Source of the DNA: Malacoraja senta
Taxonomy: Eukaryota
Reading direction: 5' to 3'
Assembly: GCA_038087875.1 (NCBI GenBank)
Contig: CM075981.1
Span: 1,550,001 to 1,614,000 of the forward strand
Length of the DNA: 64,000 nt
Positions 57,001 through 60,000 of the stretch are shown here, one piece after another. Position numbers: made by a program. The stretch's first letter is position 1; the number at the start of each line of letters is the position of its first letter.

Positions 57001-60000
57001 GTGAAAGTCACTGAGCTGTTCCTCAGTCAGAGAGCATTAGTGGAAAGTAAAACAGTCAACATTTCAGATCCAAGACCCATTACAACAGTGTAAGAGGGAA
57101 AAGAGGGGGGAACCTCAATTGAAAGATCAAATAGTGAAAGGCCTAGATATAGTGGATGTAGAATGGATGCTTCCATTAGTGGGAGAGTCTAGGACCAGAG
57201 ATCATAACTTCAGAATTAAAGGACATTCCTTTATGATGGAGATGAGGAAGAATTTAATTCGTCAGAGGGTGATGAATCTGTGGAATTCTTTGCCAAAGAT
57301 GGCTGTGGAGCCCGTCAATAGATATTTTTAAGGCATAGATAGATTCTTGATTCGTACAGGTGTCCTGGATTATGGAGGGAAGGCAGGAAAAAGAGGTTAG
57401 GAGGGAGAGATAGATGACCCATGATTAAATGGCGGAGTAGATGGATGGGCTGCATAGATTAATTCTACTCTTATCGCTTATGAACTTATGAAAACCTTTT
57501 TAAGCAGATTAGGTTAGGGTGTGGACACAAAATGCTGGAGTAACTGAGTGAAACAAGCAGCATCTCTGGAGAGAAGTAATGTGTGATGTTTTAGGTCGAA
57601 ACTCTTTTTCAGACTGATGTCAGGCGAGTGGCAGTTCTGAGATAAAGTATAGTCGGAGACAGTAAGACTGGTCAGAGACCTGCGAAGGGGGAGTGGATGG
57701 AGGGAGGGAAAGCAAGGGCTGCTTGAAGTTAGAGAAGTCAATGTACATACCGCTGGGGTGTAACCAGCCCAAGGATATATGAGGTGCTGTTTCTCCAATT
57801 TGTGCTGGGCCTCACTCTGACAATGGATGAGGCCCAGGACAGAATGGTTAGTGTGGGAATGGGAGGAGGAGTTAAAGTGTTGATCAACCGGGAGATCAGG
57901 TAGGTTTAGGCAGCTTTAGGGTGGGATGGGGTAGAGTACAGGGAATATGATCCATTCTGAACATTACGTACAGTAACCAAAACAACAGGGCAGATTCTTA
58001 CTCCGTACGTGCAAATATACTGCAGTGCTTTTGGGGTTCTCCTAAATATAAGGTCGTGGCAACAACACGTGTGTTGGAAGGAACTGCAGATGGTGGTTTA
58101 CACTGAAGATAAACATAAAATGCTCTAGCAATTAGCGGGTCAGGGGCGACATTTTGCCAGCAGCGCAACAGAAAATCATCAAATATAGTGGTTTTCAGCT
58201 TAGCTGGATAAAAGAAACAGATTGAGTATGTGTGTATGTGTATATATACACACTGAACTTTTTTTTCTCTCCCGTTATGTACTATGTCTACATATTCTGT
58301 TGTGCTGCAGCAAGTAAGATTGTCATTGTTCTATCTGGGACATGTGACAATAAAACTCTCTTGACTCTTGTAAAGGAACAGTTGACGTTTCGAGGCGAGA
58401 CCCTTCTTCAGACTGAGAGTCAGGTGAAAGGGAAACAAGAGATATATAAGTTACATGAAACAAATGAATGAAATATATGAATGAATGATGTTTAAACCTG
58501 TTCATAATATGGCTCTATCGACAACATATTTTCCAGAATCCAAGTGCAATACATCACACGGTGAAGACAACAATGAAATCCAGGGAAAAATGTGAAATAT
58601 AAATTCTCTGAGTGATGAAATATATATAACATTGAATTATCTGTGTTTACACAGGCCATTTAGCAACACCAGTCCACTCCAGTTAAGAGACCCAGCACAG
58701 AAACAGGCCCTTTGGCCCACCGAGTCCACGCCGACCGGTGACCCACGCACACAAAAACTATCCTACGCACACTAGGGACAATTTGCAAGTATGCCAAACC
58801 AATTAACCTACAAACATGTTGTAGGCACTGTCAGGCAACAACTCTACCGCTGCTCCACCATGCTGCGCTATCTTTGTGTTGTAAACAGCAGCAATGGCCT
58901 GTTCTGTACACTGAACAGTTTGAGACCTACTTTGTAATAGACATCTGTTGAGGACCTTTCAAATCTATTAGGTTGTAAAATTGGATTTTGTTATATTTTA
59001 GGAAATGGCAGTGTTGGAAGGGAACCACGTTGATGCAAATCTACAGCAAATTGGAAACAACAGGGCAGCTGACCATTTGGATAACAATGAAGGTGGAATC
59101 ACGTATGCAGTGGTGAAATGTCAAAGGAAGTCGAGATCAATGCACCCTGAGACTCACAACACTGTTCTCTACGCAGATGTTAATTTTCATCGCAACTGCC
59201 CAAAGGGCAATCGGAAACCCCACTCTACTAGGGCTCCAGAGAACTCTGAAACAATTTATGCCTCTGTTGTTTCTTAGGAGAGATCTTTAATTCGGTGTGA
59301 GTTTTTAGCAATACTTGCTTTACCACTCTATTTAGACTACACTGCTTTAATCTGTCCTATACGTTGTCAAAGATGGACACAAAATGCTGGAGTAACTCAA
59401 CAGGTCAGACAGCATCTCTGGAGAATATAGACAGGTGATGTTTGACGTTGGGACCCATATTCAGATGGTCTGTAGAAAGGTCCTGACCCACAATGTTACC
59501 CATTAATTCTCACCAGAGATATTTCTTGACCATCTGAGTTACTCCAGCATTTTGGGTTCGTCTTTGGATAAACCGGCATCTTTTTATAGCTATACTTTGT
59601 CAAGCTCCTTCTGAGCTGGTTCGTTCAATTCATCAGGTGTAAGGGGTGATGGGGAGAAGGCAGGAGAGTGATGTTAGGAGGGAGAGGTAGATCAGCGATG
59701 ATTCAATGGTTGAGTAGCCTTGGTGGGCAAAATTGTCTGCCCCTATCACTGATGACCTTACGAATTACACTCACTTCTACGATCTCTTTCATCCGCCAGT
59801 ATAATGAATGACTCTAGATCACGCATACAAATGATAAAACGGCACTGGTTCCCATTCTTGTCATACCCACCCTCATTCCCTCCACCCACAAATTCCCCAA
59901 CCCTTCCATCATAATTCCTTGCAAGGGTCAGCCTAAGCACACCTCAACCCATTGTCTCTGGGCCAAAATATTGTGCGTTCAAGTCAATAAAGCGGCAATG

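What the first reader, a model, noticed from the sequence alone, without database searches (positions are those of the whole stretch)
58537..59277. Gene C inhibitory tail disabled independently by a GT>GG splice-donor change
Seen: exon 58537-58583 is followed by GG (58584-58585), whereas the gene A paralogue has GT. Intron retention gives ...EIQGKM*. Exon skipping gives ...TKGNGSVGREPR*. The nearby GTGAAA cryptic donor is also out of frame in C. Inference: both inhibitory copies visible here lose ITIM signalling by different mutations while the activating gene B stays intact. This could reflect repeated conversion of inhibitory receptors into decoys, or birth-and-death turnover.
Basis: partly seen in the sequence, partly recalled or inferred. 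Interest (0 to 1): 0.65.

Follow-up and report, generated by a model that had tools for sequence, protein, structure and literature searches.

The report
Skate inhibitory receptor gene with broken splice donor
One copy of a known skate immune-receptor gene family has a single-base change that destroys the splice site needed to attach its inhibitory signalling tail, an ordinary kind of damage in fast-turning-over immune gene clusters.

Summary
The 47-nt exon 58537-58583 is followed by GG, while the 99%-identical paralogue A at window 30-76 has GT. The window is a skate, not human. It holds a tandem cluster of modular domain immune-type receptor (MDIR) genes. The tail exon is 79% identical to clearnose-skate MDIR3. 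Gene C is otherwise intact: 11 exons, 9 of 9 other donors GT, no stops. In 10 of 10 homologues the mini-exon peptide is followed by the last-exon peptide in C's ITIM frame. With the normal acceptor, intron retention, exon skipping and the cryptic donors at -23 and +8 all stop before ITYAVV, VLYADV and TIYASV. Gene A is disabled differently, by a derived 7-bp insertion. Gene B is an intact activating, MDIR5-like partner with an Arg in its transmembrane segment.

Two points are new. Exon skipping plus an AG 10 nt into the last exon would restore the ITIM frame.

Selected decoy and neutral birth-and-death turnover cannot be told apart. A dead gene remnant in the cluster favours turnover. Interest is low to moderate.

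The parts
34624..34660 (+). Gene C exon 1 (leader, MWIPILLISSLP), donor CGG|GTGAGT
   Evidence: tblastn with MDIR3 (P0001); flanks; translation
36965..37285 (+). Gene C exon 2, V-set Ig domain 1
   Evidence: Pfam V-set 5.7e-14; tblastn; splice sites
38516..38830 (+). Gene C exon 3, V-set Ig domain 2
   Evidence: Pfam V-set 2.8e-12
42833..43147 (+). Gene C exon 4, V-set Ig domain 3
   Evidence: Pfam V-set 1.4e-13
45564..45884 (+). Gene C exon 5, C2-like Ig domain
   Evidence: Pfam Ig_C17orf99, Ig_2 and Ig_3
47130..47447 (+). Gene C exon 6, V-set Ig domain 4
   Evidence: Pfam V-set 5.1e-13
48642..48962 (+). Gene C exon 7, C2-like Ig domain
   Evidence: Pfam Ig_3 1e-07; 83% identical to MDIR3 residues 442-549
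50254..50302 (+). Gene C exon 8, stalk (LEYSCETSKRTNYSS), donor AAG|GTAAAC
56319..56407 (+). Gene C exon 9, uncharged transmembrane segment ITYIVASGVTVLLLILIIAFFWYRKRKTK, ends in phase 1, donor AGG|GTGAGT.
58537..58583 (+). Gene C exon 10, 47-nt cytoplasmic mini-exon (SKCNTSHGEDNNEIQ). Its length is not a multiple of 3.
   Evidence: the peptide is present in 10 of 10 tail homologues
58584..58585 (+). Mutated 5' splice site GG (paralogue A has GT at 77-78)
   Evidence: 18 of 18 other donors of genes B and C are GT. On a local PWM the GG site scores 1.0, A's GT site 5.9 and the other donors 7.6-12.2
58593..58595 (+). TGA stop reached on intron retention (...EIQGKM*)
58561..58566 (+). Cryptic donor GTGAAG inside the mini-exon (-23 nt). 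Out of frame with the normal acceptor.
   Evidence: PWM 4.4
58592..58597 (+). Cryptic donor GTGAAA (+8 nt). Out of frame in C, stop at 59114-59116.
   Evidence: (PWM 0.07)
59002..59277 (+). Gene C exon 11, last exon. Frame 0 encodes the ITIM/ITSM tail and ends at TAG 59275-59277.
   Evidence: 79% identical to the MDIR3 tail, E 8.5e-39
59010..59011 (+). Downstream AG. An exon start at 59012 combined with mini-exon skipping keeps the ITIM frame (57 nt removed). This is a possible leak route.
   Evidence: sequence and frame arithmetic; not tested
59031..59033 (+). TGA stop reached on mini-exon skipping (...TKGNGSVGREPR*)
59098..59115 (+). ITIM ITYAVV
   Evidence: the consensus is recalled
59164..59181 (+). 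ITIM VLYADV
59251..59268 (+). ITSM-like TIYASV
30..76 (+). Gene A mini-exon, identical to C's, followed by an intact but weak donor CAG|GTAAAA (77-78)
495..777 (+). Gene A last exon. It carries a derived 7-bp insertion (about 548-554) that shifts the frame, giving ...QQIGNNKQQGS* with a stop at 570-572. The ITIMs (598-615, 664-681, 751-768) lie in the +1 frame.
   Evidence: 0 of 10 homologues have the insertion frame
11582..30260 (+). Gene B, activating MDIR5-like paralogue. Exons: 11582-11618, 13187-13507, 15695-16009, 20063-20377, 22803-23123, 24371-24688, 25856-26176, 27160-27208, 29504-29594 (TM with Arg: YISWNVGRWLFFLLLVLWSISTAVF), 30213-30260 (RRDESEPRHSTHELE*).
   Evidence: (87% identical to the MDIR5 TM)
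6957..8763 (+). Dead gene remnant. A V4-like exon and its upstream intron (6957-7925) are fused by a deletion to the last intron, last exon and 3' flank of an activating gene (7927-8763, 90% identical to 29988-30822).

Best explanation
Gene C is an otherwise intact six-Ig-domain, inhibitory-type member of the skate MDIR family (V-V-V-C2-V-C2, uncharged TM, MDIR3-like tail with two ITIMs and one ITSM-like motif). It sits next to an activating MDIR5-like partner in a tandem unit of about 58.5 kb.

In this assembly the 47-nt exon between the TM exon and the ITIM exon has lost its 5' splice site (+2 T>G). The spliceosome then cannot join that exon to the ITIM exon. The small, already weak exon is most likely skipped, or its intron retained. 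Either way the reading frame ends within 3 to 10 codons. The stops lie in the last exon or in retained terminal sequence, so the mRNA should escape nonsense-mediated decay. The result would be a membrane-anchored receptor with no tyrosine motif and no charged TM residue, that is, no signalling.

The most likely evolutionary reading is a young loss-of-function allele, a nascent pseudogene, of the kind that birth-and-death turnover produces all the time in such clusters. It arose independently of the 7-bp frameshift in the sister copy A.

Shown: family identity, exon model, the lesion, the frames and stops, the independence of the two lesions, and the integrity of B. Inferred: the splicing outcome, escape from decay, lack of signalling, and neutrality.
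For: Family and model:
- The tail exon hits 10 proteins, all skate MDIR or pIgR-like. The best is MDIR3 at 79%.
- Pfam finds V-set in 4 of 4 V exons and Ig-type families in 2 of 2 C2 exons. It finds nothing for the TM and tail exons.
- tblastn places all the exons.
- The exon lengths sum to 2409 nt, which is 802 codons plus a stop.

Lesion:
- GG in C against GT in A.
- 18 of 18 other donors are GT.
- 10 of 10 homologues need this junction or one close to it.
- No GT or GC lies in frame before the intron stop.

Consequences: stops at 58593, 59031 and 59114.

Independence: A carries GT plus a 7-bp insertion that is absent from C and from 10 of 10 homologues.

Young or neutral:
- The A and C units are 96-99% identical by substitution. 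The tail is no better conserved than its flanks.
- C has no second lesion in 1968 nt of Ig exons.
- A deletion-fused gene remnant lies in the same unit.

Known parallel: the abstract of PMC2213150 says signalling type switches recurrently in KIR and Ly49 and that activating forms are short-lived. A passage there notes Ly49 pseudogenes disabled by frameshifts.
Against: - No reads, so the G at 58585 may be a base error or one allele of a polymorphism.
- No RNA data, so the splicing outcome is only predicted.
- Skipping plus the AG at 59010-59011 would give an in-frame ITIM tail, so the loss may be leaky.
- The Ig exons of B and C have 0 indels where 5.1 are expected from the introns (P = 0.006). 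pN/pS is 0.57. C shows no significant excess of derived amino-acid changes (24 against 17, 11 ambiguous, p = 0.35). C's ectodomain therefore does not look decayed, which fits a still-used, tail-less receptor as well as it fits a very recent lesion.
- Two of two visible inhibitory tails are hit while the activating gene is spared. That pattern is what a selected switch would also give.
Confidence: 0.6

Rival explanations
1. Selected conversion into a decoy. Loss of the ITIM tail is favoured by selection, for example because a pathogen ligand exploits the inhibitory receptor. Copies A and C were independently turned into ligand-binding, non-signalling receptors, while the activating partner B is kept.
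For: - Two of two inhibitory tails in the window are disabled, each by a different lesion.
- Every predicted product keeps the ectodomain and the TM, and its stop lies where decay should not act (the decay rule is recalled).
- C's six Ig exons are open, free of indels and not accelerated relative to B.
- B is intact.
- Recurrent switches of signalling type under selection are documented for KIR and Ly49 (PMC2213150, abstract).
Against: - n = 2, and A's ectodomain is not visible.
- At about 1% lineage divergence since the A/C split, a neutral copy would carry only about 1-2 further lesions. Their absence is therefore weak evidence (my estimate).
- The last exon of A against C is not better conserved than the intron: 3 single substitutions, a 4-column cluster and a 7-bp indel in 276 nt, against 5 substitutions in 418 nt of intron.
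- The cluster contains an outright dead remnant.
Confidence: 0.15
2. The base is not representative. The G at 58585 is a consensus error, or it is one allele of a heterozygous or polymorphic site. The animal or the species would then still have a working inhibitory gene C.
For: It is a single base with no independent support in the window. The two copies are 98-99% identical here, which makes read placement between paralogues error-prone.
Against: It is a T-to-G substitution, not a change in homopolymer length. Mis-placed reads from copy A would bring T, not a new base. These are my own inferences; no read data were available.
Confidence: 0.15
3. Splicing rescue. Gene C still makes an ITIM-bearing protein. 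The route would be skipping the mini-exon and using the AG at 59010-59011 (or 59019-59020), or the -23 donor with that acceptor, or rare use of the GG site itself.
For: - Frame arithmetic on the sequence: 47+10 = 57 nt and 23+10 = 33 nt are both multiples of 3.
- One homologue model (P0008) joins the mini-exon 4 codons further into the last exon, so acceptor choice varies in this family.
Against: - The normal acceptor (ttgttatattttag|G) lies upstream, directly after the pyrimidine tract. By the usual first-AG rule (recalled) it should win.
- GG donors are essentially non-functional (recalled).
- The -23 donor scores 4.4, against 7.6-12.2 for real donors.
Confidence: 0.07

Closest known systems
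MDIR3 (modular domain immune-type receptor 3) of the clearnose skate Rostroraja eglanteria, P0001
   Same: - CD300/pIgR-like V-set domains mixed with C2-like domains.
- The same stalk, the same uncharged TM (..LLLILIIAFFWYRKRKTK..), the same 15-residue mini-exon peptide and the same tail, with ITYAVV, V(V/L)YADV and (S/T)IYASV.
- 79% identity over the last exon.
   Different: MDIR3 has five Ig domains; gene C has six exon-encoded ones. Gene C's mini-exon donor is GG, so the tail cannot be attached in the normal way. That MDIR3 was cloned as cDNA is recalled from Cannon et al. 2006. That paper is not held. I saw only its citation, and a one-sentence description of MDIRs, in PMC3031540.
MDIR5 of the same skate, P0040 (activating type)
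   Same: Gene B's TM exon is 87% identical over 31 residues, including the Arg (SYISW.VGRW..FLLLV.WSISTAVFTRG.K). It has the same short tail..RDESEPRHS.HEL..
   Different: This is the partner gene, not the gene of the finding. It shows that the cluster holds paired activating and inhibitory forms whose Ig exons differ at 52 of 656 residues.
KIR and Ly49 paired receptors of mammals
   Same: Tandem families in which signalling type changes recurrently by small mutations, and in which copies are often disabled (PMC2213150, abstract and passages).
   Different: There the documented switch goes from inhibitory to activating, by gain of a charged TM residue plus tail truncation. Here the TM stays uncharged, so the product would be signalling-null rather than activating. 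The families are unrelated apart from the Ig fold.
CEACAM1-L and CEACAM1-S isoforms
   Same: A small exon between the TM and the ITIM exon whose length is not a multiple of 3 (53 nt there, 47 nt here). Its inclusion opens the long ITIM frame. Its exclusion gives a nearby stop and a short tail (PMC2490704, passages).
   Different: In CEACAM1 this is regulated alternative splicing of one gene. Here a germline donor mutation would lock the gene in the short form. Whether MDIR genes normally skip this exon is unknown. A's donor is the weakest of the 19 GT donors scored.

Membership tests
MDIR family (skate modular domain immune-type receptors) | CD300/pIgR-like V-set Ig domains | tested here: met
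   Pfam V-set in 4 of 4 V exons of gene C, E 5.7e-14 to 2.8e-12
MDIR family (skate modular domain immune-type receptors) | Modular mix of V-type and C2-type Ig exons | tested here: met
   V-V-V-C2-V-C2, each on its own phase-1 exon
MDIR family (skate modular domain immune-type receptors) | Close sequence similarity to the named MDIR proteins | tested here: met
   MDIR3 is the best hit of the tail exon (79%, E 8.5e-39). MDIR5, MDIR3 and MDIR2 are among the 102 hits of the C2 exon.
MDIR family (skate modular domain immune-type receptors) | Occurs as activating (charged TM, short tail) and inhibitory (ITIM tail) forms in multigene clusters | tested here: met
   Gene B has an Arg in its TM and a 15-residue last exon. 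Genes A and C have ITIM exons.
Functional ITIM-bearing inhibitory receptor | ITIM consensus (S/I/V/L)xYxx(I/V/L) in the cytoplasmic tail | tested here: met
   ITYAVV and VLYADV, plus the ITSM-like TIYASV, are intact in frame 0 of the last exon. The consensus is recalled.
Functional ITIM-bearing inhibitory receptor | Tail exon joined in frame to the TM through canonical splice sites | tested here: not met
   The donor is GG. No in-frame GT or GC donor exists with the normal acceptor.
Functional ITIM-bearing inhibitory receptor | Phosphotyrosine-dependent recruitment of SHP-1, SHP-2 or SHIP | not testable with these tools
   Needs biochemistry
Pseudogene (non-processed, by duplication) | At least one disabling lesion relative to functional relatives | tested here: met
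   Splice-donor loss in C and a 7-bp frameshift in A
Pseudogene (non-processed, by duplication) | Relaxed constraint: further lesions, or dN/dS near 1 | tested here: inconclusive
   No other stop or indel in C's exons. pN/pS for B against C is 0.57. C-derived against B-derived changes are 24 against 17, p = 0.35. The time since the lesion is too short to decide.
Pseudogene (non-processed, by duplication) | No functional transcript or protein | not testable with these tools
   No RNA data
Decoy member of a paired-receptor family | Ectodomain kept under purifying selection after loss of signalling | tested here: inconclusive
   Same data as above. The sister ectodomain (gene A) lies outside the window.
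Decoy member of a paired-receptor family | Expressed at the cell surface and binds the ligand of its partners | not testable with these tools
   Needs expression and binding assays

The most novel reading that the evidence does not exclude
Inhibitory MDIR genes carry a built-in frame-switch mini-exon (47 nt, with a weak donor). In this skate, selection has repeatedly locked tandem copies into the ITIM-less state by different mutations. That would create decoy receptors that share ligands with an activating partner. If so, pathogen-driven evolution of paired receptors already operated in cartilaginous fish, and used the same exon-level trick as mammalian CEACAM1.
Probability: 0.12. Interest if true: 0.6.

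Novelty: new member of a known kind. Interest (0 to 1): 0.3.

Why it matters
If base 58585 is correct and the allele is common, this skate has an inhibitory-type receptor with a full six-domain ectodomain and no inhibitory tail. Its sister copy lost the tail in another way. That offers a natural test, in one of the oldest jawed-vertebrate lineages, of whether paired-receptor clusters make non-signalling decoys on purpose or simply lose genes. As it stands it is a single base in one assembly, in a family already known to be multigenic and to hold both activating and inhibitory forms. Such lesions are expected in these clusters.

Tried and rejected
- Hydropathy scan for gene B's TM segment found nothing useful. 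The TM was then found with the C-termini of homologues.
- An Rfam search of 56000-60000 gave 0 matches, so no known RNA gene explains the region.
- U12-type or GC donors: no GC or GT lies in frame before the intron stop.
- False duplication (haplotig) as the source of copies A and C: rejected. The units differ by 1-4% substitutions in most 300-column windows, with 25 indel events in 5829 columns.
- Extra conservation of the A/C tail as a sign of constraint or gene conversion: not seen.
- Relative-rate test of C against B: not significant.
- A first donor PWM contained two mis-set coordinates. It was redone.
- Short-tail isoforms in other skates: 12 of the 102 fetched proteins carry the inhibitory TM motif. 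Ten of them have the full tail of 101-108 residues. Two (P0029, P0043) run from the TM straight into V domains. The searches could not have found tail-less isoforms, so this says little.
- Cannon et al. 2006 is not held.
- Two full-text searches for MDIR found 1 paper each, the same one.
Orthologous donor sites could therefore not be compared at the DNA level.
- Exons were searched one at a time. The joined spliced model was neither built nor searched.
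Full report
WHAT THE WINDOW IS

The window has no N. I take it for a skate (cartilaginous fish), not human.

The last exon of the finding (59002-59274, searched on its own) hits 10 proteins, all from skates. The best is modular domain immune-type receptor 3 (MDIR3) of Rostroraja eglanteria, at 79% identity and E 8.5e-39. The others are 'polymeric immunoglobulin receptor-like' models from Amblyraja, Leucoraja and Rhinoraja.

A C2-type Ig exon searched on its own returns 102 proteins from sharks, rays and skates, including MDIR5, MDIR3 and MDIR2.

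Pfam finds V-set in 4 of 4 V exons of gene C and Ig-type families in 2 of 2 C2 exons. It finds nothing for the TM and tail exons.

MDIRs are described in a passage of PMC3031540 as multigene families of activating and inhibitory receptors of the clearnose skate, resembling CD300, TREM, FCAR and pIgR. The original paper (Cannon et al. 2006) is not held, and what I say of it is recalled.

Exons were searched one at a time. The joined spliced model was not built or searched.

GENE MAP (+ strand)

tblastn with MDIR3 and an Amblyraja homologue, together with the flanks, gives this layout:
- Gene A: only its last two exons are in the window (30-76, 495-777).
- A dead gene remnant (6957-8763).
- Gene B: 10 exons, 11582-30260, 2136 nt.
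- Gene C: 11 exons, 34624-59277, 2409 nt, which is 802 codons plus a stop.

Window 58508-63319 repeats window 1-4813 at 95% identity. The array therefore has a period of about 58.5 kb, and A is the counterpart of C in the preceding unit.

Gene B's TM exon (29504-29594) contains an Arg and is 87% identical to MDIR5. Its last exon encodes RRDESEPRHSTHELE*. B is thus an activating-type gene. All its exons are open and all 9 donors are GT.

THE OBSERVATION

Exon 58537-58583 (47 nt, SKCNTSHGEDNNEIQ) follows a good acceptor and is followed by GG. Copy A is identical through the exon and has GT.

- Intron retention gives ...EIQGKM*, stop 58593-58595.
- Exon skipping gives ...TKGNGSVGREPR*, stop 59031-59033.
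- The GTGAAA donor at +8 runs out of frame to a stop at 59114-59116.

A further cryptic donor at -23 is also out of frame.

The exon model is sound. In 10 of 10 homologues the mini-exon peptide is followed directly by the last-exon peptide in C's frame 0. One of the ten joins 4 codons further on.

All 18 other donors of genes B and C are GT. On a PWM built from them they score 7.6-12.2. A's CAG|GTAAAA scores 5.9 and C's CAG|GGAAAA scores 1.0.

One correction: the TM exon starts at 56319, not 56265.

1. The TM exon ends in phase 1. An AG at 59010-59011 would start the last exon at 59012. Skipping the mini-exon and using that AG removes 57 nt and keeps the ITIM frame. The -23 donor with that AG removes 33 nt and does the same. 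The normal AG lies upstream, right after the pyrimidine tract, and should win (rule recalled). I rate this as a minor leak, but it needs cDNA.
2. In copy A the +8 donor adds 8 nt. With the 7-bp insertion that makes 15 nt, which reopens the ITIM frame without a stop (frame 1 of A's last exon). That donor scores only 0.07.

INDEPENDENCE OF THE TWO LESIONS

A has GT plus a 7-bp insertion, an imperfect tandem copy at about 548-554. It gives ...QQIGNNKQQGS* with a stop at 570-572. C lacks the insertion, and 10 of 10 homologues read as C does across that site. So the insertion is derived in A and the GG is derived in C. The three tyrosine motifs are intact in both copies. The two copies were therefore hit separately after they split.

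HOW IT MOST LIKELY WORKS

By established splicing knowledge (recalled), a +2 T>G change abolishes a U2-type donor. In vertebrates a small internal exon with a dead donor is usually skipped, or the short downstream intron (418 nt here) is retained. In every case the stop lies in the last exon or in retained terminal sequence, so nonsense-mediated decay should not remove the mRNA (rule recalled).

The predicted protein keeps six Ig domains and an uncharged TM segment, and has a cytoplasmic stub without tyrosine motifs. It could neither recruit phosphatases nor pair with an adaptor.

This mirrors CEACAM1, where inclusion or exclusion of a 53-nt exon switches between a long ITIM tail and a short tail (PMC2490704, passages). 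In gene C the switch would be fixed in the short state.

SELECTED DECOY OR NEUTRAL LOSS?

- The A and C units are 96-99% identical by substitution in most 300-column windows. The tail is not better conserved than its flanks.
- Across the seven compared exons (the leader and six Ig exons) B and C differ at 85 nt and 52 of 656 residues. There are no stops, and pN/pS is 0.57.
- Introns show 22 indel events in 8451 columns, which predicts 5.1 in the exons. None is seen (P = 0.006). Both genes were therefore under constraint for most of their history.
- With homologues used as outgroup, 24 changes are derived in C, 17 in B and 11 are ambiguous (p = 0.35).

The GG change can be at most as old as the A/C split. 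A neutral copy would by now carry only one or two more lesions (my estimate), so their absence decides nothing.

The unit also contains a plainly dead remnant: a V4-like exon fused by a deletion to the last intron and last exon of an activating gene. This shows ordinary birth-and-death turnover in the cluster.

Recurrent switches of signalling type and short-lived copies are described for KIR and Ly49 (PMC2213150, abstract and passages).

VERDICT

Complete loss of ITIM signalling, and the decoy idea, are not shown. The base itself is unverified.

This is a new, damaged member of a known family, in a setting where such damage is expected. Interest is 0.3.

UNCHECKED

- Reads and RNA.
- Supplements of papers were not needed.

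Noticed in passing
window 6957-8763: Dead gene remnant. An intron plus V4-like exon (87% identical to 23965-24671 and 46728-47430) is joined at 7925/7927 to the last intron, last exon (QRRDESEAGHSTHELQ, 8149-8196) and 3' flank of an activating gene (90% identical to 29988-30822). One open frame runs 7618-8196. No leader, C2, stalk or TM exon goes with it.
   Followed up: yes
window 77-92 and 548-554: In copy A the cryptic donor at +8 nt and the 7-bp insertion add up to 15 nt. That route reads without a stop into the ITIM frame (...EIQVKMKWQCW...NNRAADHL...ITYAVV...). It may be coincidence, or a leaky compensated allele.
   Followed up: partly
window 721-724 versus 59221-59224: Four adjacent mismatch columns between A and C look like two compensating 1-bp indels. 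A reads KPTPTR; C and the homologues read KPHST(R/G).
   Followed up: partly
window 76-82: Even the intact donor of the mini-exon in copy A (CAG|GTAAAA) is the weakest of the 19 GT donors scored (5.9 against 7.6-12.2). The exon may be alternatively skipped in normal genes, acting as a frame switch like the one in CEACAM1.
   Followed up: partly
window 52586-54192 (+), 38992-40473 (-), 16211-17643 (-): Reverse-transcriptase (RVT_1) retroelement fragments lie in introns. The two minus-strand copies sit at matching places in genes B and C. The plus-strand copy lies in C's stalk-TM intron and is 88-90% identical to them.
   Followed up: partly
window 55100-56000: A G+C-rich stretch in the intron before C's TM exon has long open frames on both strands (158 and 206 aa) and no Pfam match.
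   Followed up: partly
proteins P0029 and P0043 (Rhinoraja longicauda models): The inhibitory-type TM motif LWYRKRKT is followed directly by V domains of what looks like the next gene. The TM exon ends in phase 1, like the Ig exons, so read-through splicing into a downstream gene stays in frame. This could also be an outcome for gene C.
   Followed up: no
window 38516-38830 (V2 exon of gene C): A cluster of changes derived in C lies beside the first Ig cysteine (ITIYCQYEAEY against ITIDCHYAAEY in gene B). The cysteines and the tryptophan are kept.
   Followed up: partly
window 29417-29590: Some homologue models (P0090, P0081) match gene B's TM exon region in another reading frame (..LHxMECGAL..LEYLN..). 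These are probably frame-shifted gene predictions in other species.
   Followed up: no
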